Source: Amoebophrya sp. A120 (lineage: Eukaryota > Protista > Dinoflagellata). Taken from it: a stretch of DNA of 64,000 nt. The position numbers and the translations under genes were made by a program. Numbering within the stretch: the first letter of the stretch is position 1; every line of letters starts with the position of its first letter. The stretch spans positions 6,667,860 to 6,731,859 of the forward strand of contig CAJINV010000001.1 of NCBI GenBank assembly GCA_905178155.1. Direction: 5' to 3'. The notes below the pieces were generated by a model that worked only from the letters and a program-made list of their open reading frames with translations, searched no databases and was not told the DNA's origin. Shown one piece after another: positions 8,042 to 49,604 of this stretch.

Positions 8042-10342
8042 TCAAAACTGGGCTGGCTCCAGGTCCCGCTCATACAACGGCGTGGTCGGCGAAAAAGTTG
8101 TACTACTTGATGTTGATGAGCGCGCCTCGGGACCTCCAAAAAAATCTTTCTCTGTTGCAATTCGCTTGAATGAAACACTCCATACGTAGACCATGAGTGC
8201 GAGCGCGTAACAGGAGTAGAGTAGCTGCGCAATGATATCCCAATCCACGCTATCGTAGATTTTCTCGGGGAGTTCCCATTTTTTCTGCTCAATTTCTCCG
8301 TCTTCGTCTACGCTAGTGACGGCTGAATTCCGAGCCTGTGCACTAGCGGAGAAGGCTCCCTCGATAAAGTCGTCCTCGTCATCCGTTTCGGCGAGGTCCA
8401 CCGGAACGTTCTGGTTCACGAGCAATGGTGCCATTTCGGCTCCTTCGGCAGTTATTTCTTTTTTAGTTTCTGCCTCCTCGGTCGGGCGGTGCTCGAACTT
8501 CTTAAACATGGCAAACCTTGTCGTCATCAGCATGAGTCCCATAAACGCGGAGAAGAAGCCCGTGGCCATGAAAGTGAGGTAGTGGGCGTGGCCGCCACGC
8601 AGCAGCCCGTCTTGAAAGAGAATCATGAGCACGCAGGTGAGCAGCGGGAACACCACGCCGAGCATGAATCCCATCAGCTTCGGGATCCACAGTCCGTACT
8701 GCTCCCATTGGTCGCGCCGGTTTTGGAAAAAGCCCGCGCGCCGGCGCGCCGCGTGCAATTCCGAGTATCGTTTCTGCCAGTCCTTTTTCACGGTGGCGTG
8801 GTCCTCCGGGAGCCCCATCTGGTACAGCACGTCGTACGTAATGCCCTTCTTCTGCAGTTCGGGGTCCAATTTTTGCCGCACCTTTATGGCGTTCTCAACT
8901 GTTACATTCTCCAGTGTTACATGGATTTGTCATGCAAGAATGGGAAAAGTGAAAGGGGGGAGGTTGCATCTGTAGCATTACAAATTCCGAACAGATTTGG
9001 GTGCTGTTTAGCCATTCGCAAATTTGTCATGCGAAGCAGCTTGATCGTGTGGATCTTGTTGATGATCATTTTGCATGACAAATCATGTAACAGTTGAGAA
9101 TGTAACGTTTGAGAACGCCATAACCTTCGCGTCCGCCTTCGCATCGAGGTCCTCCTCCGATACATTGTAGTCGTAGACCAGGTATGGATTGTAAAAGTGT
9201 CTGGGTCTGGAAGGTTGCAACTTGTCATGCTATTTCTGGATTATGCAAAAATCTGTGTTGCATAAGTGCCAAAAGCTGTCCACTTTCGACCAAGTTGGCA
9301 GGGAGTTTCTCATGCAGGATAGGCATGGTAGGGATCTCACAGAATCTGTCATGCTGGGTCTCGCATTCCAGACCTCATGGCTCATGGAAAATATGCATGA
9401 CAAATGTAGAAATTTTCCAGACCCAGACATTTTTGCATTTGATACCAGGTCCCCGAGCTCCTTCCAGCAGACAAAGAGTATCAGTGGCTGCAGCATGGTC
9501 GGGAAGCCGCCCGACAGCGAGTCCCGGTTGTGGACCCGCACGAAAAACGTCAGCAAAAAACCTATCACCTTGAACAGCAGTAGCAGCATGCCCAAGACTT
9601 TGCTCCGGTACCGCATCTCGACGAAGGTGGCGCAGACAATGAAGAGCGGCATTTCGATGCAGTAGGCGACAGGGTTGGGAATTACGAAGGAATGCGTCAG
9701 GGAATTATGGTACAACTCGAAGGCGAGGTCCCGGCACCCTCCAGCACCCCCCAGATATCGCTGAATAAAGGCATTCGCCGGCGCGGCCCCTATCTTTTCG
9801 TACTGCCTTTCCTTGATCCGGTCCGTCAGCATGCAGAGACTCCACATGAAGGTGCAAAACATGGTGTGCATGAGTGTGATCACCGGAAAATAATGTGAAT
9901 CGTTCTGGCCTTTCGGACCGCAGATTATCTCGCGGAGGGGCGGCCCGTCCTTTTCACTTGTATTATTCAGACGCTTGTTGGCTATCTGCCTGTTATCCTG
10001 GTGCTGGAACTTGTTCCGTTCCGCATCCTCGGTGTCCACAATGTGCCGGACGATACTCAGTATGATGCCCTGTCCTGCGTGCTTCATCTTTTCTCTGCGC
10101 TTCTTCCTGGCTTCAGCCTCCACCGAAGGCCGCTCTTTATTACTTACTCTTTTCTCAGCCTTTCCCTGCGCCTTGCTTTTTCGGCTGGAGCGATCTTCCA
10201 CTTGGCCAGGAGTTGTTCCTTCATCAGGCACAGCAGCAGCGGCTCCGTCGTCTCCTCCAAGAATGTGCGTTGGTGTTGCCTCGTTGTCCTCTGGCTGTTC
10301 TTCCGTTGCCGGCGGAGTAACAAGGGCGCCGGCTTCTGACAT
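8042..10342 (-). CDS. Rhomboid-like multi-pass membrane protein, probably catalytically inactive (3 exons: 10342-9446, 9178-9125, 8881-8042)
   Basis: Removing introns 9179-9445 and 8882-9124 gives a continuous frame WKELGDL-VYDYNVSEEDLDAKADAK-VRQKLD. Rhomboid-like segments: PVITL, LTHSF, ATFVEMRYRS, DSLSGG (cf. GASG) and HAHYLTF (cf. AHLGG). Confidence 0.55.
8882..9124 (-). other. Inverted-repeat introner intron E1 (GT-AG by sliding into the TSD)
   Basis: Arms TTATGGCGTTCTCAA..GTTACATTCTC..TTGTCATGCAA (from 8884) are complementary to 9071-9123. Flanking direct repeat CCT at 8881-8883 and 9124-9126. Removing 243 nt restores the frame. Confidence 0.85.
9179..9445 (-). other. Inverted-repeat introner intron E2 (non-canonical GT-TG)
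   Basis: Arms GGTATGGATTGTAAAAGTGTCTGGGTCTGGAA and TTCCAGACCCAGACATTTTTGCATTTGATACC. Direct repeat ACCAGGT at 9177-9183 and 9444-9450. Removing 267 nt restores the frame. Confidence 0.85.
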
Positions 10343-11339
10343 TTTGATTCTCAGACCCACGCTCTTCTTCCTAGTGGTCTGGTGAATTAGCCGCGCCGAT
10401 CAGGTGATTGTGATTCAATTACGATGGATCTGGTGGAGGTGCAATTAGAATTAATGAAACAAGCAGTAGAGTCGTCGAGACGCCTTCCGGAGGCGTCTGG
10501 TGGAACTCTGAAAGATATTGCGCTGAAGAAGTTCTACTTCCAGGTGAAACACTACGCAGTAGTGATTTTGGCGTACTGGTTGCGCGGGTGCGCGTTTTAA
10601 ATTATTGGGAGGGGAAACAAACAGCCCTGACGATTGAAGAATAACGAAAAGACGAAATAAATGCCATCCTCGGTCGTGTTGCAGAAATTGTGAAACAAAT
10701 TCAAATAACTCCCTGTACTTGTTACACTAGCCAACAGGAGGAGTTTGAGTTTTTCTCCATAAACGATGCACGACGACGATCAGTACGATGAAACACATGT
10801 TGAAACCTACCAAAAATCTACACGGACGGACGCAGTGAACGAAAACCTCAATATTTATGTGCAACACCACAGCTGCTGCATGCACCGCAAATAAAACTGG
10901 AACGATTGAAATAACTTCGCACTAAGGTGCATTCGTGTGGCCAAGCGACCAGGCCAGCACAAAGGGTCTACGCGTCCATATTATGTGGCTGAAACGACAC
11001 GCCTGACGAGAACGATGAGACGACTAGGGAACAGTTCCTGATCCTGCGGCAAAAACTCTATTGCTACATGGATCCGGTTATTTATTCTTGCCTTGTGCAG
11101 CAAAGTGCTGCCGAAAAGCATCTGAAAACAGCCTGGCCATCGTGATTCAGATTCTGTACCGCTTGAGTTCAAAATATCTACCTGCTCCGTTTGAGTAACT
11201 GACACTGTTGAAGCGATGCGCAGCGCTGCGAGCTCATTCAGAATCAAAATGCAACTCCAATTTTCTAATTTTCGAAACTCCTAAAAGTCAAGTTATCTTC
11301 TTGTCGTCTTCGACTTGCTGCTCATACTTCGCGCGATGC

Positions 11340-13106
11340 TCAAACTTCGTCACCCGTTCTGAACTCCCTTCCGCGTCGTGCTTGACTGATGGCGTCACGG
11401 GCGTCCTTCAAGCTCTCGAGTTCTCGACCGAGCCTTTGTTTTCCGCTTTCTTTGTCCCACCAGGGTGCTGCACCTGCACGTCTTGATGTGGTTGCGGGTG
11501 AGGAAACAAGCGCCATGTCTCGGAAGAAAAGAAAGGAATCAGGGGCAGTTAGTGAACGGCCGCCGCGGAGGTGTCTTTCACTTTCTTCGGGAATCGGTAT
11601 GACAACGTCGCAATTCGGGGACGTTCTAATTTTTCCTTGGCGTGGCGCAACAGGTGACAAGTCGCTCTGGTTTCTCCACATGTCAATGTCTCTGCTTCCG
11701 TTACCGTTTTGGAGTCGACACAAGCGAATCAAGGCCTGAGACTCCGCTACCCAGTGTCTGAAGCCATTGTCATTGAACAGAGCCTCATAGTCATCGCGCT
11801 GTTCGCGGGAGTCTGTAGTATACAACTGACTACGGTTATCACCCGCGACGCGTCCTCGCGTACCTTGCTGATTTTCGCTTTCCCGGACCCGTATTGCTTC
11901 TTCGCTATCTCGTCCTATCGTGCTTTCTCTCTCCTCGCTCTCGGGGGACGAGGGAATCACTGAAAGGGGTATCATTTCCACCTCTAAACTTGACGAAGAA
12001 GCGGAGCTTTCGTCGTCACCTGGAACCGGCGCACGGTGTGCAGCCTCGGAGCTTCTTTTCGTCGACGATCCGGAGACCGAGGGTGCGATGCGGTCCCGGC
12101 GCTTCATCCCTGAAGAGGCGCCGCCACTCCTGCCACTCCTGCTTGAAGGTCTCGGCCCACCGTCTGCGACGCGACCCAGCACCGATGGTGTTATCGACCG
12201 CACAGGATCGGCGGCTCGCTTGGGTTTAGACTTGTTCAGCAGGGCCGCGGCCTTCACCGCCCCACCTGCGGAGGAGGCATTTTTGCTGAGCGAGGCGCGC
12301 TCCGCGATGTTTTTGAAAAAAGGCTCGCCCTTGTAAAGGTAGTCTGTAAAGTGTCTTCTCGCGATCTCCCGCTTCGCGTCCTCGACGAGACGGTCGTGAT
12401 CGACTGGAACCTCTCCTGCAGGAGCACCGTCAGCCTTATCCGTTTCGTCAGCACCCAGCACCGGACTGTCGTCATCGGCCAACTGCGTTTGGTAAGAAGT
12501 TGGAAGAACCCCTATCACATCGGCAGGGCGGTCTTCAGGGTGCAGCAGCAGCGGCGCGGCCGCGATTGCCTCCTGCTTCGAGGCAAAGCGCAAGCCCCAG
12601 AAATCGTTGTCGTCTTCGTCTTTCCTTGCTCCGTCCGTATCTGGCTGGTCTTGCTCTACTATGTCAACCGGTTCGTCTTGCTTTTCAGCGACGGCCTCTT
12701 CGGTCGGCTCCTCGACCTCTTCCGGGTTTTCCTCCACGTGTTTTTCCGCCCCGCTCTCGACGTCTTTTTCGTCCTGCTCCCCTTCTTCTACAACGACGAG
12801 TTTACTTTCCTCTTCCACTGGTGGTTCCTCAGCCTCGTCCTCCTTTTTCTCTTCTTCAACGGGCGCCTGCTCCTCGTCCTTTTTCTCAGTGTCGTCCACG
12901 ACTTCTTCGGGGGGTTTCTCTTCCTTCTCTTCGTCGGTGCTATCGCAGCAACCGCAGCAGAACCCCTTCATCGGGTGGCCATCGTCTGGATGCTCGCCGT
13001 GCTCCTTGTCGGCTTTGGTAGCATCTGCCTCTGCTCCGTTGGGAGTTGTAGCGGCATCGCCTTCGGCGTTCTCGCTCGCCTTGGCCTTTGCACAACAATT
13101 ACCCAT
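11340..13106 (-). CDS. Acidic low-complexity protein with N-terminal myristoylation/palmitoylation motif
   Basis: Long ORF. The first ATG gives MGNCCAK, followed by FCCGCC and an E/D-rich tract. The 3' end may be spliced further. Confidence 0.65.
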   Translation of the reverse strand: MGNCCAKAKASENAEGDAATTPNGAEADATKADKEHGEHPDDGHPMKGFCCGCCDSTDEEKEEKPPEEVVDDTEKKDEEQAPVEEEKKEDEAEEPPVEEESKLVVVEEGEQDEKDVESGAEKHVEENPEEVEEPTEEAVAEKQDEPVDIVEQDQPDTDGARKDEDDNDFWGLRFASKQEAIAAAPLLLHPEDRPADVIGVLPTSYQTQLADDDSPVLGADETDKADGAPAGEVPVDHDRLVEDAKREIARRHFTDYLYKGEPFFKNIAERASLSKNASSAGGAVKAAALLNKSKPKRAADPVRSITPSVLGRVADGGPRPSSRSGRSGGASSGMKRRDRIAPSVSGSSTKRSSEAAHRAPVPGDDESSASSSSLEVEMIPLSVIPSSPESEERESTIGRDSEEAIRVRESENQQGTRGRVAGDNRSQLYTTDSREQRDDYEALFNDNGFRHWVAESQALIRLCRLQNGNGSRDIDMWRNQSDLSPVAPRQGKIRTSPNCDVVIPIPEESERHLRGGRSLTAPDSFLFFRDMALVSSPATTSRRAGAAPWWDKESGKQRLGRELESLKDARDAISQARRGREFRTGDEV

Positions 13107-14098
13107 GCTACGGGTCGTGCGGAAAGAAGGAGTGTGCACAACGAGAGCTTTTTTACTTTTTTCGAAGTAGAGGGTGTGATACCAAAATGCAACCAGGCAT
13201 CTTGGTAAACGTTAATGATATCCTAAACGGACAATATAATGGGATTTCTAGTGGGCATGCAGCTGGTGAGGTACAGGTAGCTAAAGTACTGAGAGAAGAC
13301 ATGGGTGGAACTGTAAATCACGCATTCGCACTAACTAGGCTGTCTAAGTAATCGATACGTTCTATTCATCTCGTAGAAAATACCATACCACAATCACTTG
13401 TTTGTCCAACCTGACTTAGCTAAGGGCTAAACAATGACATCCACGACAACGAACGAAGACAGAGAAAGGGACGTGGATAATACGAACGACAACGAGCAGC
13501 ACGAAAAGAATTGTAGTTGTACGAAGAACGAAGAAACGAATTCAAACCAACACGATATAGGCCAGGATGAGGCCAGAAAGTTCATTTGTCGAATGGAGAC
13601 GGAATACTGGCAGTGCGTTCGTCGACAGTCAGTAGGCTACCCCTAACAATTGGGAATTTCGAAAAGTGCATACTTAGCTCACTGCGGAAACACTTGGACA
13701 GGGTGAAGAGAGAAACCAAGCCCCCCTGGTCGCGATAAACGACTGCCATATTGCAGGAACGCGACGGCAAGAAGCTCTGACGCAGACGCATTTCAATTTG
13801 ACATTCAATTTCTGTCTCCTCCAGCTGAATGGATCTTGCATTTATTTCATTTCTCGACGAAGCTCTCGGTGATCCTGCTTTCGCCCCTATCATTTGTTGC
13901 ACGAAGATGTGCTGAGGCTGACAGTTCGTCACAGGCGCCTTCTTCAAGATGCATTTCAGATGGGTGCTGATGAAACAGTGGTAGTCGTGACTTAGATTTA
14001 GTTCATACAAATTGACACAGTGTCCGCACACGATCTGATGGGTCAACACCATTTTTCGTGGTCTTCATTCACAAATTGCACATGCGGCCCAGACGACC

Positions 14099-15398
14099 GT
14101 CATATCGTCTTCCCGGCTGCGGCGGACCCGGCCCCTTTTCCACCCTCGTCGGAAACAAAGACGTGCTGTTCGGTTTTCGAGTTGGTTTTTTTTGTCATGC
14201 TCGCTGATACTCAAGAAAGATACAACCGCGCGAATTACTAGTTCGTTGTAGATTATGACTGATCAATCTCCATGGTGTGAACAAGAAGAGAACAACAACA
14301 GTAGTACGTCCTGCATGTGCTTTTGGTAGTTCTTTTTGAAATTCTCGAAGCGATCCGTCATCTCCTTATCCGGATTCCAGTGGGGCATTTTGGTCTTCGT
14401 GGGCATACTCCTTGGTGTTGGCGGTACGCGCAACTGGATGTCGCGACGATAGCGGTTTCTGTAGATGAAGTGTTGACGTGAAATGTTAGTTTACTCACTG
14501 CAACTACTTACGCCGGATTCTGATTTTCAATCTTCTCTTTCATCGTTTTCTAGAACTCGCTGTGTGAAAGGCGAAAGTGGCTTCACTATTACTGAAACTA
14601 AGTGAAAGCATACCGGAAAGCAAAAGAATGGTATAGTACGAATTGGCCCCCATTTTCGTGAGCAGCGTTTGTCTCTTCGCCTCCTGCCTGCCCATGGCGT
14701 TGGGATCGCCCAAGGTGCCCTTGCACTGCTCGAGTCGCTTCAGAAGAAGCCTGTTTTCTCGCGTTATCCTATCTGACTCTCGGGTATGCAGCTGCGCGTG
14801 CAAACTCTTCTCCGCTTTCACTGGGTGCAGGAGATCGATTTTCCTGAGTTGATTTGCGTTTCCTTTAAACCAAAAGCAACAAGATGAACTACAACAGGAC
14901 TGCAATTTCAAAAAGTCGTTTTGTTTCGCGTGGTACAGAGAATGTGGCTCCCCTAATTCGAAAAATATATCGCAGCATCAACACCGCTGGAAAAGTGCAG
15001 TTTTGATTTTCAAAACGTAGTTTACCTTGTGTCTATCTCGAGCATTTTCTGCAGCAATATCCTGTTCTCCAACTGAATCTCGTTTGCTCGATTTCTCTGC
15101 AGCTCTCGTGTATTGGTTTTGTACTTGAGGTGTACGTATCTGGTCGGCTCTGTCGTGTCCACGCAGGGCTGTTGTTGAGGCGGTTTCATTTGATCATGTT
15201 GTATCATGACCGACAACATTGATTGGTACCTACATCGCAGTTAACTTTTCGTTTTCATTCATTCAAACTAAAGTCATGCTATGATGGTACCTTGACAGTG
15301 GCTAGATGCCGCAGATGAGACTCGTGCTTGGCTTGATCTTCCTTTTTCTGGAGGATGCGATTGCATACCTTCACGTTCCAGATGTTGGCGTTCTTCAT
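14099..15398 (-). CDS. CFAP97/KIAA1430-domain-like flagellar protein (multi-exon)
   Basis: Spliced product HLRHLATVK-PCVDTTEPTRYVHLKYKTNTRELQRNRANEIQLENRILLQKMLEI, plus a second ITRENRLLLKRL repeat, resembles the KIAA1430/CFAP97 signature. GT-AG introns at 15169-15290, 14844-15025 and 14459-14639 restore the frame. The last exon is tentative. Confidence 0.65.
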
Positions 15399-17127
15399 GG
15401 TTTCAGGATCAACTGCGACGTCGCAATGAACCTGATGCTCGTGAAACTTGAAAGACCGCCTTCGCACACGGGCCGACTGTCTGGTTTGTTCTACTTCTGC
15501 TCCTGTCGGGTACAGCCGCGTCTTCTTGCAGATTGTGTTTCGTTTTTGCACTGGAAACAACAGGCGAGCGGCTCTTCTTTGCGTGGTCGAAACTTGTTCT
15601 CTGAAGATCGTTGCTCGGTGGTTGTTCCCGTCGTCGATTTCCAAGAAATCCGGGGCTTCTTAATATGCGATGTGGCTTCGTGTTTTGGCAACAAATCGTT
15701 TGTCGAAAATGTGTCGGAGATGTGCAAATCGACCCGAGCGTCACTTCACAGGAAAAGAAGTCCTCACGAAAGCCGCCAGCTGTTGAAATGCTGCGGTTTT
15801 GCGATCTCGACCTAAGATGAAGAGATGAAGTTGGTCCTCGCTGCGGACAGTCCGTTGAACGTGCGTATTTTAGCTTTTGCTTCCCTCGTTGACGTGAGCG
15901 TTCAGCAAGAAATAAAGCTGCTCGTGCGAAACGTCGGCTCTGCCGGTGCCTTCTACTTGGATAGCTTTCCTTGTACTCCCCAATGTTTTGCTCAACACCT
16001 GGTTTCCCTACGGCTGTAGAAAGACGGCAGGAGAGGAGGACGCACCCACTGCTGGCACACCCAAAAGTCAGAAAACAAGGCGCTTCTGCCACTACTGCTT
16101 CCCCTTCCCGGTGACCGGAATCGGAGACTATTGCGAGACAGGTTGTCGTTACGTGCTTCAGGGGTTGGAATTTGCTACCGGAGTTTCTTCTGGTTCGTTG
16201 GTTGATGCGTCCCCCGTTCAGACAAAAGACTTTCTTGCGTCCCCCGTTCAGGCAGAAGGACGATCCAAGCCTGCAACCAGTTCAAGACGTCGGGTCGAGA
16301 CGGCTAAACACTTGATGAAAACTCCAATGAGTCTTCAAAATATCGTAGGTCTAAGCACGCGGCGTCTCGTTTGAAGATGCTCTACTTGTTCCCGACGATA
16401 ACGCTCGTCTCTGGAACAAATCCTTATCCTATCGTCCTCCGGCGCCCAGGACGATGGTGTTTCAGTTACTACAGATACTGTCCTGCAGATATAGTCACGT
16501 TTCGTTCAGACAGGACCTGCTCTTGCTGCAACGTCAAACTGGTTGTGGTCGTCTTGTTCAACGTCCAGATTGCTCGTGGTAGCCACGACGAAAAACGAGC
16601 CGGTAGCAAATGACCGTGCGTGTCCAGGGGTGGTTCACTTGAAGATGAAAGGGACTGGGACCAGGAGCAGGTAGGGTTATATTCTGCGTAGAGATTTTAC
16701 AATTCGATCTCAAAACTCGCACCGGTTGTCAGTGCGTCGCAACAAATTCTTTTTCCAAGAACCCAAAAAATCTACATTCAGAAGAGCGCAAAAACCTGAA
16801 ACCACTACTGCATTGGATAAAATCGCAGAAGTCGTCGTGGTGGCAAGAGAGATCGTCTTTTCACATACCTGAGCTTCACACCTACGATCACCAAAAACAC
16901 AGTATTCACGACCACTCAGTAGAAACAACATACTTAGAGACATGTTTACAATGAAAGATTACGCGATTGATTCCGATTGGACACCAAAAGAAACACCAGG
17001 CACTCGTCGCACGCTCCCGGTCAAACACACTAGCGATAACCCTCAGCCTCTCCCCGAAACAAGTCGAAAACAGAAAGATGATGACATCAAACAGGAACGA
17101 AAACCAGGCGTGCGCAAGCACACACAG

Positions 17128-17202
17128 TCACGAGTTTCGATGCTGGCCTCACGAGTCGTACGCCTCACGAGTTTCGATGCTGCCTCACGAGTTTCGATGC
17201 TC
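17128..17202. repeat. Short tandem repeat of (C)TCACGAGTTTCGATGCT units
   Basis: Four TCACGAGT units, three of them followed by TTCGATGCT. Confidence 0.8.
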
Positions 17203-23174: not shown

Positions 23175-26100
23175 CTAGCCCGAAACCAATGAAGTAGGTG
23201 AAGCGTCTCCACCGACCACCATCCGCCTCACTAGCACTCGCTCTTTAAAAATGTTCGGCCCGGGCCAGCTCTTCATGTACATGTCAGGAGAGGCGGCTGA
23301 CACGGTGTGCTGTTGGGTCTTCCTCGAGGGGCGCTGTGCCACCTGCTGCAGCTCATGTAAGATCGTAGTAATGGGCGTGCGGCACCACGGACCCATCCGC
23401 GTTTTCCGAGCCGAAGCCGTAGATTTTGACGGTGCGGCAGGCCTGCAAAGCCAGGAAAACCCCGTTGACGCCCTGCTTTGGCATGGTCCCCCGGTCCAGG
23501 TTGCGTACATGGTCAAGCGCAACACTTTCCAACCAGGCGGGACTGAGAAAGCGCACGTCCTTGAATTTGACCTTGTCCCGCGTGGGGTGCGCTACGTTGG
23601 AATAGGCACAGCACGGGTTCGGCGTCTTGATGAAGAATTTCTTGGGCCGGTGCAGGTGCGACAGCCACCAGTTTACGTCCGGCTCCTTGTAGAGCGTCAC
23701 TAAGACGATGGTGGCCTCCAGGTCTTGCTTCGGGATGATCCCGCCACAAATTTTGGACCAGTCCGTCGCGCCGCCCATGGCCTCGGGGTACAGAAACCGG
23801 AAAGTAGTTTTGCTCCCGACGTCATCCTCGAACCCAACCTGTGTTGCAGCTGCAAAAAAAGTGACGCAGCGGTATGTCACGAAGGCGCGAATGTTACTTC
23901 ATCTGTAAAAAGGAGAAGCACTGTTTGTGGCGCTCGAGACCGGATTTTCCAAGGGACAGCAGGGTCGGAAAGCCCGGAATATGTGAGCGAATTCACAGTC
24001 ACTTTTCGATCATACAGGTCAACTGACGCAGCACAAAAGGCTAAGTGCGCCCGAAGGTTTTTTTGATCGCGAAGAAGTAAAGGGAACAGAAGGCAAAACA
24101 TTGTCAAGAGATGAAGCGCGGTGCGCAGAATGATTGTGCGGTCGGTCAGGTCAACAGGCACAGCTTGGAGCGCAATCAATGCCCGTTGGTTTTACCGACC
24201 ACATAAGCTTGTTGTAGCAGCTGTTATCAGTTCACTCGCTTATGCGAAAAAAAGCTGAGCGAATAGTTCACAGTGCGAAGGGGAAGGCAGAATCCAGAAG
24301 CGGAAAAAGAACGGCGATTTTGTATGATCAGACAGGTCAACAGATGCAACTGCGAGTTATGAAGAACTCCCAGTTATACCGCACCCGTTGGTTTTTCTGA
24401 TCTTGTTGCTTTAGCAAGTCCGATATCAATTCAGAGGTCTATGAAGGAAGACGGACCAAACAGTTCTCGGTGCGGACAATCAAATTTTCGGTCGAGGAAA
24501 ACACAAATTGATAAATTGCATTTATACCGTTGGAGCACATGAAAAGCGAAACACCGCTTCCTGTGAGTCTATTTCGGGCCCGAGTGCACTGCCCTCGAGG
24601 TTGCCGGAGCTGCCGACCACGGCACATGATTCGTAAAGGTACTTGGTAGACGGCGCCGAATGTTTTTCGATTACGCATCCCTCCCCCGGGGTATCGCCGA
24701 TGAGACCGACTATGCTAGTCGACGGTGCGTCTTTACCGAACCACTTCTCGAGGATATGGTTGCGCGGGGTCGTCCACCCCTGATGCACATTGGATTTCGT
24801 TAAGAAAGGACACACGTCTGTTTCGAACGGCTTGTCTTTGTCCGTGTGCGGCGACCCCGACGAATTCTGATCTTCACCACCGGATCCAGGCTCGCAGGAC
24901 TTGAAGGGCTTCCCCGTCCGTTTTTGGGCGCGGTCCGGGCCAGCGAGGCAAAACCACCGCTCGAGGGCGTCTCGGTCCACAGTTACCTGCCTTTGGAATA
25001 CGAAATGCAATTCGCCTCAAGAGTGGTTTTCGAGGAACAGGAATTGCAAAATTTAAATTTAAATTTAGCATATAGGAGCTTTAAGGTTAGTCAAGGGAGC
25101 TCAGGATCGTTTGCATCTACAACCATCTGGTTTCAAACCATACAAGGATCTCATTCTGGGACATGATAGACATGAATTGAACGTAGCCTCCGACGCCAGT
25201 CTGGTCGATAGGCGAAGTGGCACCTAAAGACTAGGCGCCACCTGCACGGCGACACAAACAGCTTTAATGGCGACGATTTTCTTTTTGGAAGTTCTACGGA
25301 GCGACCCTACGCATGTAGGGCGTAGCGCGCTGATGCGAATGCGATTCTTCCGAGATGAAAGAATTTGCGTGCTTGGTGCCAATTGGAGACTTTCTTGCTC
25401 TTCATTTTAGCTGCTGGCGACAAAGAATCAGAAAGAACAACTCAACCGATCGCTGTCGATAAGCATAACATTCTGACTTCATGAGGTTGACACTATCGCT
25501 AAAGCAAAGCGCCGCGATCAGCAAGTGAAGGCAAATTAAGGGGCTTGAAAACAGTATCTATTGAATACAAGATGAACAGCCTGACACTGCTTACCTTCGA
25601 ATGTTCCTTGTGATGGTACTTCTCTTCGTAGACCAATCCGTAGTTATTCTTCAGCTCTTTGTTGTATGTTTCGAGCTCCTGTGGGGTGTATAGGGCTTCT
25701 GCAACTTCCCTCCGTCGTTTCATCTTTCTCTCGTGCAGCAGCTGTGCCTCTGTTGGAGCGGCGGATGTAGTCATTCCCTCCGATGATGCTTCAGGAACAC
25801 CTCCTGGCACGAGGACGCCAGCTCCTGGGAGGTGTTCATCAGATGATACCCTACTGTGCGCATATTGCGTGGCCCCCGCCGGTGACAAAGTAGAAGTGCT
25901 TGTTGTGGCTGTCAAGGACTCGCGAGGCAAGACGTCGTCCTGCTCCTGCGTAGTAGAAGCACGCACGCTCCCTTCGTCCGTCGTTGGTTTACTCGTCGCA
26001 CCTCCACCTCCTCCGCGTAAGCGCTTTGTATCCACTGCAAAAGCATCGCACTCGTATGAATTGCAGGTATGCATGACAAATGCAAATCTGGCTTCCTACC

Positions 26101-26550
26101 CAAATCTGCATTACAAATTCCAATTTTCTTCCTGATAAAATTTGTGATGCGATTTAAATTTATACTAGTACGATGGCGATACTTTTGCAATGCATACTTT
26201 GCTAGGGGTAGCGATAGCAGCACGATGCCACCCTCATCCACCTCGCCCTGCAACGAAGGTGGATCCCCCACCGGCGACAAGGCAGAGAGCAGATCAGTCG
26301 GAAGCAAGATGCCGTGCACAATGACCAGCCACACAAGCGCAAACAGCCCCGAAAACAATGCCCCGCACGCGACCCATAGCGCAACCCGCTTCGTCAGGGC
26401 CTGGCAGAGCGAAGGAGCACTCGCAGCAGTGGGCGAATTTTTGTCGTCCTCTTGGTCTACTTCTCCGAGAGCTCGGCGAACTGGTATACCACGGGTCGCG
26501 CCATCGGTTGGCAGTATGACACCGCCTGACGAGGGAGAGTTCCAGCGCAT
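23175..26550 (-). CDS. Glycosyltransferase family 29 (sialyltransferase-like) type II membrane protein
   Basis: N-terminal TM ([23 protein letters not shown]). Sialylmotif [34 protein letters not shown]|[12 protein letters not shown] is split by GT-AG intron 23839-24527. Motif [24 protein letters not shown] and motif III HYYD are present. Other introns: 24987-25594 and 26064-26197. The 3' end is unresolved. Confidence 0.85.
26064..26197 (-). other. Short introner-family intron E4 (predicted GT-TG)
   Basis: Ends GTATGCAT/ATGCATAC. Shares GCATTACAAATTCC (26108-26121 = 8975-8988) and AAATTTGT(G/C)ATGCGA with E1. Removing 134 nt joins the TM exon to ORF 25499-26074 in frame. Confidence 0.65.
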
Positions 26551-35999: not shown

Positions 36000-36279
36000 T
36001 GTTGACTAGAGCTTTATGCACACAGCATGCAATGCGTGTTCAAGCTCCCCTGCGTGGTTCCATCGATCTTGATCTTCAGCACAGTAACGATCCTAACCGT
36101 TTAGCTTAGTCGTCTCGTCGTCTTTGTGGTCTGGTTGACCAAACCAAACGAATCAATCCATCTTGAAACACCACCTGTATACAGATGTGAGTCAGTACTC
36201 CGCTCTGAATCATTCCAAACAGAAAGATGCGAACTCGACCGCTATTCGTATGCTGTGAATGTGTTCAGAATTCCTAACA
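36000..36279 (+). repeat. 5' LTR
   Basis: TGTTGACTAGAG...TTCCTAACA, direct repeat of 42002-42281. Confidence 0.97.
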
Positions 36280-36293
36280 TTCTGATTCACACT

Positions 36294-36310
36294 TGGTGCC
36301 GCCGGTGAGA
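36294..36310 (+). promoter_or_regulatory. Putative primer-binding site, possibly for tRNA-Leu
   Basis: TGGTGCCGCCGGTGAGA is complementary to a tRNA-like 3' end TCTCAC-CGGCGGC-A-CCA. It lies 14 nt downstream of the LTR. Confidence 0.6.
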
Positions 36311-36435
36311 CCGGTAATCGCGAGCCAACGAACAACTTCGCCATCCACAAGTCCAAATTTTTCCGTCGGAACACCATCGGCATCTACACGCAAAAATCTC
36401 TCTTTGGAATAGATTGATTTACGAATCCCGACGGT

Positions 36436-41811: not shown

Positions 41812-42001
41812 AAAGGAACTTATATACGCCGGAGCCCCTTGCGCTTTTTCATGCCGTAGCCATCCTGATCGCTTTTGAAAGAAAAATTTGTGATCCACCA
41901 TTCTGCTTTGCTTTTTCATTGCAAGCTTCTGGTGGTGATTTTGTCGTACAGCTTTTACTTGCTGCGATTTTCGAAAAACGGCTTGCGCTTGGGGGGGGGA
42001 A

Positions 42002-42281
42002 TGTTGACTAGAGCTTTATGCACACAGCATGCAATGCGTGTTCAAGCTCCCCTGCGTGGTTCCATCGATCTTGATCTTCAGCACAGTAACGATCCTAACC
42101 GTTTAGCTTAGTCGTCTCGTCGTCTTTGTGGTCTGGTTGACCAAACCAAACGAATCAATCCATCTTGAAACACCACCTGTATACAGATGTGAATCAGTAC
42201 TCCGTTCTGAATCATTCCAAACAGAAAGACGCGAACTCGACCGCTATTCGTATGCTGTGAATGTGTTCAGAATTCCTAACA
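42002..42281 (+). repeat. 3' LTR
   Basis: Direct repeat of 36000-36279, preceded by a polypurine tract. Confidence 0.97.
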
Positions 42282-43981
42282 CTTATACATAGTAATTTTT
42301 CGCGCCGTGTGCTTTTGCCTCTGTCGTGTTCAATAGCGGCCTGAAAGTGCAAGTGGCCAGCTCGTCCAGCTCAGCAATGATATCAGCTCAGCGGTATTTT
42401 TTTCATTGTGTATCAATCTATATTTTTTTCATCGTTGACGGTATAATCTAGGGTATCCAGCACTGCAAAACTAGTGCGATACGTTTGCACCATTATAGAG
42501 TAACAGCAAGGTGTGGGCAATGCTCAGCTCATTTGTTCTACCGGGACGCTTGTATTAAAGGAGCAAGTATTTGTTCGCAATCCAGAATAGTAAAGTGATC
42601 GTAGTAGTAAAGCGATTATATATAATTTTAGCAACTGCGAGAAGATCTAATCTCCTAGAAGGAGTTCGTCGCTCTTTCAGCGAGAGTGCAGATAAGTATT
42701 GCATTCGACCAAGCAGTCAAGTTAGCACTAGGCTGGGACCATCGTGCGGAAAATTTAGAAGAAACTCCTACCTTACAACCTTCACCTTCGTGGACAAAAA
42801 AATTTTAGTTTTAGAGCGTTCATATATGATGCCGGCGCGCTTGAAGATTTTACTGCCTGGTTGGTCGTACAAAAAGGAGAACGCGCGACAGGCTTCTTCT
42901 AGCAGGTGAGGACGCCACGCAGTTCTTGACGTATGTAGTGAACCATACGAATGTTTTTGACATTTTATCGCCAGCATTGTTCTTTCGTAGATGCAGAATG
43001 CAGTAGTGGGGCTGCTACTATAGCTCATTCTGGTCGTTGTAGTTAAAAATACCAAACTGGTGCACCCTTTGGGGATGATCGTCTTTGGAGACTTCTCCTC
43101 CGGTAGTGCGAGGTATCGGCGCTCGCGAACCCATGGAGAGCCATACCCCAATCCGGAAGACGTAGTGCGGGTCTCTGTCACACCCCGAAATCAGAGTGGC
43201 GCGAGACCTCAGGATCCATCCGGTGAAGAAGGAAAACAGCACAGGGTGGGTGGGTGGGAAAAGCGCGAAATGGCGCCCCCCCCGATCATCTTCATGTCGA
43301 ACTTCTCAGGTTTTGGTTACCGTAAATACTGGACGCGTTGTCCACGCCCATAAAATATCGACCGACCAGCGGTCGGCCTTGACTCACAGGCTCGCAAGAC
43401 CACAGCTGCCCGGTCATACATTTTATGCACTGATCCAACCACGGACGGATCACCCTTTGGGGATGATCGTCTTTGGAGACTTCTCCTCCGGTAGTGCGAG
43501 GTATCGGCGCTCGCGAACCCATGGAGAGCCATACCCCACCGGCGGAGACGCAACGCACCAAAGCAACCCCGAAGAACCCTACAGACCCCACGCTGGAGAT
43601 GAATTTGGGGAACCACAAGCGCCCCCATAGCGAGAGCGGTGCGGCGATACCGAATGCTACCGAAGCCCGCAAAAGCAGAAACAATAGATACTGATACCGG
43701 AAAGACAAATACAAAAGAAGAAGAGATGGTGGTAGAACACACGGATAAATCAAAATACATGCCCACTCAGGCGGGCGGGGCCCACCGACAAAAGAAATTG
43801 CGTAGATCCATCGATAGCTTCACATCAGCATAAAAATCCTAGAACTAGCCATGATCCACATAGACGTAAACTAATACCCAAGTTCTAGAAAAGGACCGAG
43901 CGGAACGAAAGAGGAGCCCAGGGAAAGCCAAGACGGCCCCGGAGCAATAAAGCCGAACCCGAAAGAATAGCCGCGACGGCT

Positions 43982-44812
43982 CTACTTCTTCTGCTTAGCC
44001 TCGTGGATCTTCCACGACTCTGACGGGTTGAATCCCGTCCATCCCATCCGCTCCACGGTCTGGCGAATAAATTCCTCCGACTCCGGGGGGTCATGGCTGA
44101 AACGGCAACCGCTGCCGAATTTGCAAACGCCATTCTTGAGAAAGTTCGCGCAAACCCCGGGGGAACCCGATCCGCGGGCCCGCTTCGCAGCGGGACCATC
44201 CTCCTCCACGCTTTTGTTCTTCTTGGACGCCGCACGGCTGCGGCGGATCGCATCAATCTGGATAAACAGCAGCGAAGTCATAAAAGTCCAAACCCGGAAG
44301 GCGTACTCTTCCAAAGTCTCCACCTTGGGGGGTTCCTGCGCAATATTCTGCGCCGCGGGGGCATCGCCATACTCGTCTTCGACGATCAGCTCACTCATAT
44401 CCCCGAAGACCTCATTGATGTCTGACACCGCGAACGGGTCCGCGGAATATTTAACATAAAGATTGAGACCCCAACGATTCGCGTGCTCCACCGGTTTCCC
44501 GCAGAGGATTAGGCAGGCGGCAGCGAACTGCACTACTTCTTTCAGGTCTTTGAACTTAATAGTTCCCGCCTCCCGATTCTTCAGGGCCCGCATCCACTTC
44601 GCAAAAACCACCACAGTCGCGACCACCAGCGACGCAAGGCCCTTCTGCTTCACAACTGCTTCGACCACCTGCTCTTCGTCAGCAGCTGTCTTCAACGCCT
44701 TATGCAGCATGCCCCCAAAACTCGCCAAAAGAGCAACATCCTGCTTCCCATTCTCCCCCGCAGGGCCCGCCTGCTGCGCCTGCTGGTCAAGAAGTTCTTC
44801 ATCCCCCGCCAT
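43982..44812 (-). CDS. Gag-like protein with CCCH zinc finger
   Basis: 276 aa ATG-initiated ORF inside the split-repeat element; CANFLKNGVCKFGSGCRFSH = C-x8-C-x5-C-x3-H. Confidence 0.75.
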   Translation of the reverse strand: MAGDEELLDQQAQQAGPAGENGKQDVALLASFGGMLHKALKTAADEEQVVEAVVKQKGLASLVVATVVVFAKWMRALKNREAGTIKFKDLKEVVQFAAACLILCGKPVEHANRWGLNLYVKYSADPFAVSDINEVFGDMSELIVEDEYGDAPAAQNIAQEPPKVETLEEYAFRVWTFMTSLLFIQIDAIRRSRAASKKNKSVEEDGPAAKRARGSGSPGVCANFLKNGVCKFGSGCRFSHDPPESEEFIRQTVERMGWTGFNPSESWKIHEAKQKK

Positions 44813-45512
44813 TTTTGAGAGTGAAATGAAAACTGAAACTACTGCTGACGTGAAAATACCAGTACGCTATCGACGAATGTCAAGCTGTCGAGGTCGGATA
44901 GGACGCTCGTGTTCCCTGTAAGCAAATTCGAAAAGACCGGGGGAGAAAAATCCCACAAGCGCGTAGCTTTCAAAATTCCAATTTATCGAGGACCCAATGG
45001 CGCATTTAGGATAAGCCCTGCCCTCGGGAAGCAAGTAAAATAGCACAACCCTATGAGAAGGATCCCAGATTTGTAACGCTCAGAAGGACCCCAAATTTCT
45101 AAAGACAGAGCAAGGAGAGCATTGATTTCGCGAAAAGAATATGCGAGAGGAGATTTACTCACGCTGATCTTGGTCTTTCTTATCTCGGAAAATTCTCGGC
45201 CCATGGCGCTGGACACTCGCAAGCCAAAAGCGGCCACGCTATAAAACTTCACAACAGGAACCGCCCGAAGAATGCCCAGCCTTTCCACCTCACGCCTTCC
45301 CTCTTTTAGGTTTAACGGGTTCAAACCGCCAGTGCCACAAAGCCGAGAAAGTTTGAGATGAAGAAAAACCAAGACCATCGCGAAAGAAATCCAAACTCGC
45401 AAAAAAAAACTCCAAGGTCATCCTCATACCGAGGATAAATATATAAGCCTCTCGAATAAAGAGCCTACTCGGTCGCGCTCGCCGCGAACCCAAAAATAGA
45501 AAGCGCTCCGGC

Positions 45513-45641
45513 CAGGCTGACCTCATGTCAGCCTGTCGCACCGGCAAAGAAAGCGAAAATCTGGCCAGGCCGACCTCCCGCCGGCCTGTCTCACCAGAAA
45601 TAGAAATCTCAGCCCAGCCAGGCTGACCTCGTGTCAACCTG
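45513..45641. repeat. Three tandem 53-bp units, each with a 9-bp stem-loop
   Basis: CAGGCTGAC-ctcat-GTCAGCCTG at 45513, with variants at 45566 and 45619. Confidence 0.85.
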
Positions 45642-46006
45642 TCTCACCGGGGAAAGCGAATACTCAGCAAAACTCGATCAGATCTATGCTACCATCGGCA
45701 GGGGCGCAACACCCTGAAAACCCAGTAGGACACAGACGAAATAACAGGAGAAAAAGCGCGAAATGGCGCCCCCCCCGATCATCTTCATGTCGAACTTCTC
45801 AGGTTTTGGTTACCGTAAATACTGGACGCGTTGTCCACGCCCATAAAATATCGACCGACCAGCGGTCGGCCTTGACTCACAGGCTCGCAAGGCCACAGCT
45901 GCCCGGTCATACATTTATTCTTTTTTTACATACTTACATTGTAATCAAAAGACCAATCGCGTGCTGGCAGCTTCTTTATTAGGCGGGCGAGTGACTGTTG
46001 TACGTG

Positions 46007-46861
46007 CTAATTGACGAGTCCCTGAGAGTAAGTCGTGGCTGGCAAGCTCGTGTCAAAAAACCAGTCCGCCTCGTGATCGGCCATGATCGTTTCGACCATG
46101 GGCTCCGTCAGATACACCAAGGGGTTCGAGCCGTCGCGATTCTCGGCCAGCAGCACCGACAACATGGTACTGCAGGTCTTACCCTCCCCCGGAATGTGAT
46201 AGGTTCTGCTGTGCGCCTCCCGAAAGGCGGCGGCCGGTAAGACGTTTTGCCCAACAAAGAGGCAGCGCGTGGCCTCGTTCACCGAGTTCATGTCCCATTG
46301 CAGCGCCCCGTTGCTCGTGCTTATCTTCGGGCGCTTGAAAAAGAACAGCAGCTCGTCGGTGTCCTCGCACCACACCTCTTCGCCGACCCATTCGTGCTTG
46401 CTGGTCGGGTTCTTCAGAAAGGAGGAGAGCCCGTTCTCTTTGAAGACACTGTTGTGGTACTTGTTGCGCTGGGTGACCTCTTTCACCTTCTTCCCCCTAG
46501 GGTCCTCCTTGCACAGGTAGAGTTTCTGCCACTTTTTCGTGACAGCGATGATTCGCTCGGTTTTTGCATCCTCGCAGCACGCGTAGGGGTGGGTTTTCAG
46601 CGTATTGGCCAGAAAGCCGTCGACGAATTGCTTGGTCGCGTTTTCCAGCGAAATCTTCTTGGCCGTCGGGTCAGGAGAAGTGCCGCACAGCTTCTGGACC
46701 TTTTCCTCGCTCGACATTTTCTGGTCGACGCCCCCCATCTTCTTGCTCTTGCTTGGGGTGACAGCTTGATAGAAGTCACTCCTCTCAGTCCTCGTGGTTG
46801 TACAACCGCCATGGTCGTGGGACGAAAAAGTTCTTGTCGGGGAGATTCTTTCCGTCGTCAA
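46007..46861 (-). CDS. Hypothetical protein
   Basis: 284 aa ORF with GC3-rich coding-like pattern; no recognised domain. Confidence 0.6.
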   Translation of the reverse strand: MTTERISPTRTFSSHDHGGCTTTRTERSDFYQAVTPSKSKKMGGVDQKMSSEEKVQKLCGTSPDPTAKKISLENATKQFVDGFLANTLKTHPYACCEDAKTERIIAVTKKWQKLYLCKEDPRGKKVKEVTQRNKYHNSVFKENGLSSFLKNPTSKHEWVGEEVWCEDTDELLFFFKRPKISTSNGALQWDMNSVNEATRCLFVGQNVLPAAAFREAHSRTYHIPGEGKTCSTMLSVLLAENRDGSNPLVYLTEPMVETIMADHEADWFFDTSLPATTYSQGLVN

Positions 46862-47742
46862 GAAGGTCGCCGTGGTGATGGAATCGATAGCACAAGGTGG
46901 TTATAGTCCTCTACAGCTCCAGATCGACGAGCAGATGAATCAGAATTCGGAAACGATGGAGCCGGCAAGTCAATTGTTTGAATATCAGCTGGACAAAGAA
47001 AAGGGATCAACTGAAAATGTACGTAAAACTTCTTCTCGAGGAGGTAGAGGAGCCCAGTAAAGAGTTGCACTTGTGAAAACCTAATGCACAACTTCGAGAG
47101 GGATCCCAACTGTGTAAGCTTCGCCTTCGCGAACAAACATGCACAGATTGACGCGAACACGACTAGTGATGTTGACACGCATGGTGAAAAAGCTATACCC
47201 CGCAGGGGCAGGAGTTGTCCGAATGGTGAAGAAGAAGATGTTGTTCTTTTGCAGGACTATGCAAACAACATGCAGTGAAGCGAAAGAATTCTTCGAGATC
47301 ACATGTTTGAATGAAGATATGAGCATCAAGCTCTCTGGACGGGAACGGGATGCGCTTAGTCATGATCATTCCGACGCGGTCGGAAGGTCCAACTTTTATT
47401 GTACAGAAAAACTAAAAAGAGGTGCGAAAGTAATACACTCGGAATTTACGCACCACACAAGAACGCCTCGACTTCATATTCATCTTCTTTTTCATCCCAT
47501 CAGGGTGGGTATAAGATGAGAAAGATACTTGGTAGGTGAGCATTGATTCCGCTGTGTGCGTCGACTGAATGAAGAAAATAAGGAGCCGTGGGTGGCGGGT
47601 AGCATTAGCAGTATGCAAGTATATGAGTAGAAAAAAAAACATGTTGAAGAGTGAAACAACTACAACGGTTACCACGGTAGCTTTGCTTAGCATTAACATT
47701 ATGTTGACAGATAAACCCGAAAAAAGAACTAAACCCAGCCCT

Positions 47743-49604
47743 TTACGTCTGCGATGAGAGCACCTCGTGCGCAAACTCCTCGAACTCGATCTCTCCGGAG
47801 CCGTCCGCGTCGGCGATCTCGAGCATCTCCTCCGCCTCGTCAGCGGTCATTGCGTTTCCCACCCCCTTCATCAGCAAGCGCAACTCGTTGGCGGAAATGG
47901 ACCCGCCGCCGTCTCTGTCCATCAGGTCGAACGTTTCCCGGAGCTCCACCTCGGTGAGTGGCGGTTTTCGGAACAGAGCCATCATGTCCAGAAAGCGCTG
48001 GAAATCCCAGAGGCCCACGCCCTCGGGATCCGACTGGTTCACCGCCCACTCCATCTCCTCGGCGTCTTGGCCTGTGATTATTTCCATTTTGGCAGAAATT
48101 GATATGTGTCTGTGTATGTGTTCGCTCAAGCAACATACACCTTACTTTAATCATGCCCATGATCATCTCTTCGTTCGCCGCAGTTTGACATCAACAGCAC
48201 AGATTTATGTCCAAATCGTGAGGAGCAGGAACATAGTTAAGCTTAGGCTCTCTGTTGAGACTGAGACAGCACGAGGATCGGGATCTGCATAACATCTATA
48301 TTGCAGCACTCCAAAATTTCTACCTTGTCCAATATGTTCCATGGCTCTGGCGACCTGTGGTGGGGTGAGCAGCCCCTCGCCGAGCGTATCGACCAGGTGA
48401 AAACCGCGGGCAAAGTCGGAAAGTTCGAAGGGTGCGAAGGTGTACTTGTTTCGGATTTCGTACTTGTAGAAGTGGTAGAGCTCGGTATGGAGCTGTCAGG
48501 TTTGAAATCGTCAAAGTTGAAATAGTTTGTCATGCATAAAATGCAACACAGAAAGTGCCTGTCTTGCAGAGTAGGCAAGGGAAGCAGATTGTCAGCCTGT
48601 TTCGGGGTAGAAATAGAGCTGCTAAAGTAGCACGACAAAAGGCGTCTTCCTTACCCAAACAGCATGACAAATTGGATTCCGGTGCTCCGAAAATTTGTCA
48701 TGCGCTGCTTGAAAATTGGTCTTCCAACTGGTATCCATTTTATGCATGACAAATCATTTCAACTTTGTCGATTTCGATCCTGACACTCCCATACTCGGCT
48801 CGGTCGTCGTAGTCCGCGAAGGGATCGTAGTCGAGTTCCGCCAGGGGTGCCTTCAGTCGCACGCTATCCGGTACGGGGGCATCGTACTCCTCTCCGTCGC
48901 TACCGACCAAAATGTCGAGCGGACCCGGAAGCTTCATACTCGACAGGCTGCGCAGGCTGCGTGCGCTGCCCCCCAGCGGCGACTTGGGAGAAGGCTTTGG
49001 TTGCACCGCCGCCTCGTCTTCGCCCGCAGCGTTGTTTTCGGGTGTCGGTGGTTTTGAAGATGCGGCGGGTGCGGTCTCATCGCCAGCGGGGACGCCTTCG
49101 GTTGCTCCTTCCGTGGCATCGGCAGCTCCGGTCGTTTCCTCGGCGGGTGCTGCTGCCTCTTGTGCTGCTGGTTCCCCCTCAGCCCCACCCTCGGGTGACG
49201 CCTCCACAGCTGCTTCCTCTGCGCCCGCAGCCTCGCCGTCAGCCCCGGCGTCGTCGGCTGTTGATTTGGAGGAGAAAATTTCAAATGAAACGTGTCGCAC
49301 TTGAATATCATTTCAATCTTCTGGCAGGGTTTTGACCTAAAACGAGCCTCTTGGACTATGTCTGATCTCACACTGTGGTGGGCCTACCGTATCCTCTCAA
49401 CATCTCACTTAGGTCGCCGGGCTTTCGCTTTGGCGTGTAATGCTACTAAAACTACTTATATGCAAAAACCAAATAAAAAACCACTAGCAAATCATCAATC
49501 TCAATACCCTGCTTCTCAGCAGCATCCGCTGCTTCTGCTTCCTTCGCTCCCTCTTCCAGCAAGGTGGGAGCAGGCTGCTCCGCCGTAGCTTCTGGATCTG
49601 ACAT
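47743..49604 (-). CDS. Calmodulin/centrin-like EF-hand protein with acidic Ala/Glu-rich N-terminal extension (4 exons)
   Basis: EF-hands DRDGGGSISANE and DADGSGEIEFEE, plus degenerate DTLGEGLLTPPQ and DPEGVGLWDFQR. Introns 49258-49507 (GT-AG), 48482-48794 (introner) and 48072-48323 (GT-AG) give one open frame. Confidence 0.85.
48482..48794 (-). other. Inverted-repeat introner intron E3 (non-canonical GT-GA)
   Basis: ~60-nt complementary arms (48485-48543 vs 48736-48794). Direct repeat CTCGG at 48481-48485 and 48794-48798. Removing 313 nt gives DYDDRAELYHFYKY in frame. Confidence 0.88.

What the first reader, a model, noticed from the sequence alone, without database searches (positions are those of the whole stretch)
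8882..48794. A fold-back introner family with one 'hairpin + 3 nt' excision rule and a fixed-distance internal box
Seen: four introns (E1 8882-9124, E2 9179-9445, E4 26064-26197, E3 48482-48794) are inverted-repeat elements. E2, E3 and E4 start GTAT and end ATAC + 3 nt (CTG, CGA, CTG). E1 is TTAT..ATAA. In E1-E3 the 3 extra nt duplicate the upstream exon (AGG, CTG, CGA). The outer ~40 nt of the arms differ between elements but are complementary within each. An invariant TTGTCATGC/GCATGACAA box sits about 40 nt inside both ends of E1-E3 (8927/9073, 9222/9395, 48527/48744) and recurs internally. Known: Amoebophrya has non-canonical IR introners whose splicing mechanism is unresolved. Inference: the element carries a GTAT donor in both orientations, the 3' site is set by RNA geometry rather than AG, and the box binds a transposase or splicing factor acting as a ruler.
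Basis: partly seen in the sequence, partly recalled or inferred. Interest (0 to 1): 0.85.

Follow-up and report, generated by a model that had tools for sequence, protein, structure and literature searches.

The report
Hairpin transposon introns without splice signals
Small hairpin-shaped mobile elements sit inside genes of a likely Amoebophrya parasite, and the three with transcript cover are cut out exactly; this is a known kind of intron, but related copies show that it needs no GT or AG and suggest it is likely cut at one fixed spot beside the hairpin, a point the literature leaves open.

Summary
The elements are real, but their anatomy was misread. E4 starts at 26029. Spliced contigs lose E3 plus one TSD exactly (313 nt) and E1+E2 together exactly (510 nt); E4 has no RNA cover. 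In 47 copies from a related organism the G is host sequence (29 of 94 ends). In 20 exon-embedded copies, GT is possible in 7 and GT-AG in none. The box is real, shared by families with unrelated arms and more conserved than its spacers. It is degenerate, repeated, either orientation, and 33-49 nt from the ends, so not an invariant ruler. This is the known Amoebophrya A120-type introner (Farhat 2021; 5-bp TSD and TA/TA termini in Gozashti 2025). The fixed register and the shared box were not found in print. The scan has noted similar introns in other genomes.

The parts
8885..9122 (-). E1 element, 238 nt, TAT..ATA ends, arms of about 40 nt
   Evidence: 87 DNA contigs part from it behind 9122; 36 family copies 76-86% identical
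8880..8884 (-). E1 TSD copy, gene-downstream (AAGGT on the sense strand)
9123..9127 (-). E1 TSD copy, gene-upstream; offers a canonical GT..AG register (intron 8882-9124); the fixed register would be 8881-9123
9128..9177 (-). short exon between E2 and E1 (54 nt between the aligned contig pieces, with TSD letters)
   Evidence: table 8; frame restored
9183..9444 (-). E2 element, 262 nt, TAT+7 nt+AAAA end type; inferred intron 9179-9445 (GT..CTG), no AG register
9178..9182 (-). E2 TSD copy (CCTGG sense); second copy 9445-9449
26029..26196 (-). E4 element, corrected ends, 168 nt; TSD at 26024-26028 and 26197-26201 (CAAAG sense); inferred intron 26025-26197; no RNA cover
48486..48793 (-). E3 element, 308 nt; TSD at 48481-48485 and 48794-48798 (CCGAG sense); 313 nt removed from RNA; inferred intron 48482-48794
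6662..7246 (.). E5, fifth TAT..ATA element, 585 nt, TSD GCTCC at 6657-6661 and 7247-7251; no box within 1 mismatch; apparently not in coding sequence
8927..9081 (.). four boxes in E1 at 8927(+), 8975(-), 9024(+), 9073(-): two inverted pairs, cores 45-46 and 91 nt from the ends
9222..9403 (.). boxes in E2 at 9222(+), 9307(+), 9346(+), 9395(-)
26071..26150 (.). boxes in E4 at 26071(-), 26108(-), 26142(+); the outer ones face the opposite way from those of E1-E3
48527..48752 (.). boxes in E3 at 48527(+), 48630(-), 48662(-), 48695(+), 48744(-)

Best explanation
These are copies of several likely non-autonomous DNA transposon families with TAT..ATA ends and 5-bp target duplications that sit in exons and, where transcripts cover them, are removed exactly with one duplication's worth of bases, likely at one fixed register one base before the 5' TAT and four bases after the 3' ATA, and likely by a spliceosome that reads the hairpin rather than GT and AG. 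SHOWN: ends, TSD length, exact removal of E3 and of E1+E2, no need for G, GT or AG in related copies, shared box. INFERRED: (1) Insertion by an unknown DDE transposase making a 5-nt staggered cut (about 0.85). (2) The fixed register N|TAT..ATA-NNNN (about 0.55). It puts the element's invariant TA at +2/+3, where this genome's canonical donors have GTA; because both ends read TAT inward, it works in either orientation. (3) Spliceosomal chemistry, with the long stem bringing the sites together and the 3' cut measured from the stem base (about 0.55). (4) The box is a DNA-level binding site for the mobilising protein, repeated inside the element, rather than a splicing ruler (about 0.5).
For: Termini and TSD: 5 of 5 window elements. 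In 47 copies from loci L002-L039 the 5-bp repeat is perfect in 30 and within one mismatch in 42; lengths 3, 4, 6 and 7 are perfect in 0. Exact removal. No dinucleotide rule: of 20 copies with a confident sense strand, 20 break the frame or carry in-frame stops if kept; GT is possible in 7, GT-AG in 0, and 3 have no register starting with G. One of those three interrupts a SEL1L gene, where removing element+5 nt matches 76 of 84 homologues without a gap. Register, lower bound: in L030 only the upstream TSD copy's 4th base gives the B-box cysteine. PF22586 matches at E 8e-6; orthologue P0095 reads LCEDC and 167 of 184 motif instances have C. Upper bound: in L013 only the downstream copy's 5th base gives the E of the closest homologue, P0002 at 93% identity. 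Six RNA-supported canonical introns in the window all start GTA. Box: within the E1 family, non-anchored boxes have a mean consensus share of 0.916 against 0.792 for spacers; 12 of 12 other-family copies carry at least one box.
Against: The register rests on two copies from a related organism without RNA. The upper bound rests on one homologue at a variable column: 52 of 82 others have Q, which does not discriminate. In L027 the homologue has P, matching neither copy and one base change from the upstream one. cDNA cannot place the cut within the 5-nt repeat (both=5). Farhat et al. call the splice sites variable relative to the hairpin. E1 can be read as canonical GT-AG at a different register. 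No transposase-bearing copy was found; the longest copy is 585 nt. Arms show no covariation within copies: 34.0 of 38 against 34.1 for shuffled partners, p=0.81, so selection on RNA pairing is not shown. The RNA label of X1-X3 is the tool's guess, and all three come from one sample.
Confidence: 0.55

Rival explanations
1. Same transposon introns, but the cut floats within the 5-nt repeat, taking GT or AG where one is available (as at E1) and other positions otherwise.
For: Farhat et al. describe variable sites. E1 has a GT-AG register. TSD mismatches at positions 2-4 were synonymous in 6 of 9 cases, as expected if both copies are sometimes exonic.
Against: 6 of 9 against 46% expected is not significant, and that count included mis-stranded loci. 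In L030 any cut before position 4 would replace a zinc-binding Cys.
Confidence: 0.2
2. Removal is non-spliceosomal: a structure-guided endonuclease and ligase measure from the stem and release a circle, as proposed for Euglena nonconventional introns.
For: Neither terminal dinucleotide is conserved. U1 snRNA was not detected in Amoebophrya. The inferred geometry, with a 3' overhang 3 nt longer than the 5' one, resembles the Euglena code N3-CDG..CH'G-N5-6.
Against: The inferred register aligns TA with the GTA of local canonical donors. Nearly all spliceosomal proteins and U2, U4 and U6 are present. The Euglena CAG/CTG motif is absent.
Confidence: 0.17
3. The box is an RNA signal (branch point or binding site of a splicing factor) that sets the 3' site as a ruler.
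For: Conserved above the spacers. On the sense strand it reads U-n-A-C with the variable base in the n position, like the yUnAy branch consensus (consensus recalled, not from a call). One canonical intron carries a copy near its 3' end.
Against: Distance varies from 33 to 49 nt and orientation flips in the E4 family. On average about three copies per element occur in both orientations. E5 lacks it. A tight 43-47 nt distance is not significant in independent families.
Confidence: 0.12
4. The junctions are reverse-transcriptase template-switch artefacts across a strong hairpin between direct repeats; the elements stay in the mRNA.
For: Strong hairpins with 5-nt direct repeats are the classic setting for this artefact (own knowledge).
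Against: The skipped form is the main contig, at depth 383-441, and also skips the canonical introns. Retention would break the reading frame in 20 of 20 related copies and in E3.
Confidence: 0.03

Closest known systems
Introner elements among the non-canonical introns of Amoebophrya sp. A120 (Farhat et al. 2021, PMC7789003; read: abstract, sections 10, 11 and 16, passages, supplement legends without figures)
   Same: Repeated non-canonical introns with terminal inverted repeats, 3-5 nt direct repeats (5 bp in Fig. S19 legend), hairpin fold and no transposase. The A120 IR motif TAT+7 nt+AAA matches E2, E4 and E5.
   Different: That paper leaves the border unknown and variable and reports no internal motif (TTGTCATGC: 0 hits in its supplement). 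Here the TSD is uniformly 5 bp, the register is bracketed, and a box is shared across families. E1 and E3 lack the AAA run.
A120 introner families in Gozashti et al. [quoted passage not shown]
   Same: TIR DNA introners of about 150-320 bp with TIRs of about 30-55 bp; the same termini and TSD as annotated for fam38.
   Different: Most A120 families there have automated TSD calls of 2-5 bp or none, and no splice register. Family identity with E1-E5 could not be tested, because no sequences were seen.
IS3EU/GingerRoot DNA transposons (PMC10045372, PMC12730594; passages read)
   Same: TA..TA termini; fungal members end TAYGG..CCRTA with TIRs over 30 bp, like E1 and E3.
   Different: Their TSD is usually 6 bp; here 6 bp fits 0 of 47. 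No transposase is available for comparison.
Euglena nonconventional introns (Nomura et al. 2025, PMC12501133; read: abstract, sections 8 and 12) and hemistasiid diplonemid non-canonical introns (PMC12621601; abstract, section 10)
   Same: No GT-AG; base-paired ends; cut sites at fixed spacer lengths from the stem, with a longer 3' spacer; MITE origin proposed.
   Different: Different motif (CDG..CH'G, spacers 3 and 5-6, against TAT..ATA with inferred spacers 1 and 4); unrelated lineage; tested genetically there, only inferred here.

Membership tests
Amoebophrya introner element (Farhat 2021) | Intron supported by RNA junctions | tested here: met
   E3 313-nt skip; E1+E2 510 nt; E4 not covered
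Amoebophrya introner element (Farhat 2021) | Terminal inverted repeats forming a hairpin | tested here: met
Amoebophrya introner element (Farhat 2021) | 3-5 nt direct repeat at the borders | tested here: met
   5 bp in 5 of 5; within one mismatch in 42 of 47
Amoebophrya introner element (Farhat 2021) | Repeated in the genome | tested here: met
   DNA depth 185,940 over the E1/E2 bin against about 28 outside; 122,151 at E3
Amoebophrya introner element (Farhat 2021) | A120 IR motif TAT+7 nt+AAA | tested here: met
   met by E2, E4 and E5; E1 and E3 share TAT only
MITE / non-autonomous TIR transposon | TIR, TSD, short, non-coding, high copy | tested here: met
MITE / non-autonomous TIR transposon | Cognate autonomous element with the same ends | not testable with these tools
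   no genome held; none among 52 copies
IS3EU/GingerRoot | TA..TA (TAYGG..CCRTA) termini | tested here: met
IS3EU/GingerRoot | 6-bp TSD | tested here: not met
   0 of 47, 0 of 5
IS3EU/GingerRoot | IS3-like DDE transposase | not testable with these tools
   no coding copy found
Canonical U2 intron | GT/GC..AG ends | tested here: not met
   only E1 of E1-E4 has such a register; GT-AG 0 of 20
Euglena-type nonconventional intron | N3-CDG..CH'G-N5-6 code | tested here: not met
   ends are TAT..ATA; code

The most novel reading that the evidence does not exclude
All TAT..ATA introners of this lineage obey one code, N|UAU..AUA-NNNN|: a U1-less spliceosome accepts any base at intron +1 and any terminal dinucleotide, reads the transposon end as +2 to +4 of the donor and counts four bases past the stem. 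That would make any insertion in either orientation a perfect intron, converge on the Euglena geometry, and pair with a single pan-family box that reveals one mobilising protein behind many apparently unrelated families.
Probability: 0.35. Interest if true: 0.8.

Novelty: new member of a known kind. Interest (0 to 1): 0.52.

Why it matters
More than 60% of introns in these Amoebophrya strains are non-canonical, and their borders and splicing route are stated as unknown. Because cDNA cannot place a cut inside a perfect repeat, copies whose two TSD copies differ are the natural readout. About a quarter of copies are of that kind (12 of 47 with one mismatch), so existing genome and RNA-seq data could settle the register at once. 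A fixed, G-free register would show how far spliceosomal site recognition can relax and why these transposons invade exons freely. It would also allow correct gene models. A shared internal motif gives a bait for the missing transposase or splicing factor.

Tried and rejected
(1) Whole genome: none held, and the metagenome records behind the loci are not held either, so no genome-wide count and no transposase search was possible. (2) Raw RNA reads of run X7 laid only 3 reads: not informative. No RNA contig covered E4, so its removal is untested. (3) Viral scans gave one hit each; L001 was read and is a chance match, L040 was not inspected. (4) Symmetric target (first and last TSD base complementary in 5 of 5 window elements) fails in the larger set: 15 of 47. 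(5) Synonymous bias of TSD mismatches: inconclusive. (6) A stop-codon argument for L013b came from a wrong strand call and was dropped. (7) L032 had no homologue; L027 was ambiguous. L008, L022 and L006 mismatches were not resolved by homologues. (8) Arm covariation: none. (9) Rfam: 0 hits in the window. PDB search of the B-box half: one weak unrelated hit. (10) The p=0.0002 for boxes at 43-47 nt included the six ends that prompted the idea; without them p=0.09. (11) Print searches. The motif search listed 20 of 236 papers, none on introners by title. Roy et al. 2023 is not held. Figures of Farhat's supplement (S19-S25) and two A120 rows of Gozashti's table were not seen and may bear on the register or the motif. 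(12) Ribosomal bypassing and RT artefact were considered and rejected.
Full report
Setting. The host genes lie on the minus strand; removing each element plus five bases restores long reading frames. The host is likely an Amoebophrya of the A120 type. This is inferred from the match of E2, E4 and E5 to the published IR motif TAT+7 nt+AAA and from dinoflagellate homologues of related loci. No genome was held.

Anatomy. A scan that assumed no terminal bases found five elements with a flanking direct repeat and complementary arms, all TAT..ATA with a 5-bp repeat: E1 8885-9122, E2 9183-9444, E3 48486-48793, E4 26029-26196 and E5 6662-7246. No other repeat length from 2 to 8 fits any of them. DNA contigs of other copies part from the window exactly at these ends: 87 behind 9122 and 42 behind 26196; 145 behind 48793 against 83 one base later. 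Arms are alike within an element (68-88%) and near background between elements (42-62%, baseline 46+-7%), so these are several families, each with its own inverted repeat.

Splicing. Contigs of X1, X2 and X3 (one sample; the RNA label is the tool's guess, but they skip canonical introns) skip 313 nt at E3 with five letters of ambiguity, and the DNA run does not. Contigs of X1 and X2 lose 510 nt over E1 and E2, leaving 54 letters. E4 is not covered. Among equivalent registers, E1 has GT..AG. E2, E3 and E4 have GT one base before TAT but end CTG, CGA and AAA; E2 has no AG register at all.

Larger sample. A metagenome scan with a 21-mer from E1 returned 38 loci of one assembly, from a related organism: E1-family copies are 76-86% identical to E1, and one exon is 67% identical to an A120 protein. 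An unanchored scan and a scan anchored on TAY..RTA that did not use the TSD gave the element list. I dropped one duplicate locus (L026), one low-complexity hit and one cut-off element (L014), added two copies and corrected L016's ends, leaving 47. One more copy (L028b) was added for the later tests. The 5-bp repeat is perfect in 30 of 47 and within one mismatch in 42; 3, 4, 6 and 7 bp are perfect in none. The base before TAT is G at 29 of 94 ends, and both ends have G..C in 8 of 47. For 20 copies whose strand was called confidently by a codon model (several lower-confidence calls later proved wrong), all 20 would break the protein if kept. GT is available in 7, GT-AG in none, and three offer no register starting with G. 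One of these lies in SEL1L, where removal of element+5 nt aligns without a gap to 76 of 84 homologues. An element-borne GT donor is therefore refuted; for these copies removal is inferred from the proteins, not from RNA.

Register. Let k be the number of TSD bases kept from the upstream copy. In L030 the copies differ at position 4: the upstream base gives the Cys of a B-box CxxC, the downstream base gives Gly. The orthologue P0095 has Cys, as do 167 of 184 motif instances in 71 of 79 hits, so k is at least 4. In L013 the copies differ at position 5: the downstream base gives the Glu of the 93%-identical homologue and the upstream base gives Lys, so k is at most 4; this bound is weaker, since most other homologues have Gln. 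L027 supports the upstream base at position 1 but is ambiguous at position 5. At k=4 the intron reads N-T-A-T-G/C, and the six RNA-supported canonical introns in the window start GTAC, GTAC, GTAA, GTAC, GTAG and GTAT. So k=4 is the one register that puts the element's invariant TA where canonical donors have it. It is an inference from two copies plus a motif match.

The box. It is enriched beyond chance (as an 11-mer, 9 exact hits in 1,561 nt of element against 0 in 62,439 nt outside). Its core lies 43-47 nt from all eight ends of E1-E4, reversed in E4, with a second inverted copy at 91 nt from the right end of E1-E3. In the E1 family 65 of 74 ends have it at 43-47 nt, but half of these were selected by the search and the rest share descent; the exact 9-mer is found at 45 of 74. 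Boxes are better conserved than spacers, 0.916 against 0.792. All 12 other-family copies carry at least one box. Their positions are 33-49 nt in 15 of 24 ends (null 7.5, p=0.0002) but 43-47 nt in only 5 (null 2.5, p=0.09). The picture is a degenerate, repeated, orientation-free motif that begins where the arm ends. That resembles subterminal transposase-binding repeats of MITEs (PMC1636448, seen as a search listing only) more than a splicing ruler. Nothing here tests binding.

Mechanism. Most likely a DDE transposase, not found here, inserts these elements with a 5-nt stagger. The transcript folds into a long stem, and a spliceosome in which U1 was not detected cuts one base before the stem's UAU and four bases after its AUA, restoring the exon exactly. 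Rivals are a floating register, a Euglena-like non-spliceosomal route and the box as an RNA signal.

Comparison and verdict. The class is published: Farhat 2021 and Gozashti 2025, whose table gives 5-bp TSD and TA/TA termini for A120 fam38. The ends resemble IS3EU but the 6-bp TSD is not met. The fixed register and the shared box did not appear in searches or in the supplements read; unseen figures and one paper that is not held may contain them. Earlier notes of this scan report similar signal-free hairpin introns in other genomes; none matched this sequence. Verdict: new members of a known kind, with a corrected anatomy and a simple test of an open question; interest 0.52.

Noticed in passing
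window:36000-42281 (+): Full-length Copia-like LTR retrotransposon: 280-nt LTRs identical at 277 positions, TSD CTTAT, a 394-aa ORF and a 1402-aa RVT_2 ORF in one frame separated by a single TGA (possible read-through). It also makes a 5-bp TSD.
   Followed up: partly
window:6865-7081: A second 40-nt inverted repeat (88%) nested inside E5; possibly an inserted element of another kind.
   Followed up: no
window:4200-6200: Array of palindromic repeats of about 45 nt in both orientations.
   Followed up: no
window:14192-14200: The one exact box outside E1-E4 lies near the 3' end of a canonical GT-AG intron (14166-14307).
   Followed up: no
window:14166-15290, 48071-48322, 49258-49507: RNA-supported canonical introns start GTA and end CAG, with A/C-rich 3' ends and no pyrimidine tract.
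   Followed up: partly
L028:346-564: A copy with one end TGT instead of TAT and a perfect 5-bp TSD; table 5c also shows ends beginning CAT and TAC.
   Followed up: partly
L030:346-432 homologues P0096-P0098, P0129: Near-identical B-box halves preceded by unrelated sequence, suggesting different introns at about the same site in related strains.
   Followed up: no
L002-L039: Element plus TSD length is a multiple of three in 13 of 20 exon-embedded copies, driven by the 235-nt family.
   Followed up: no
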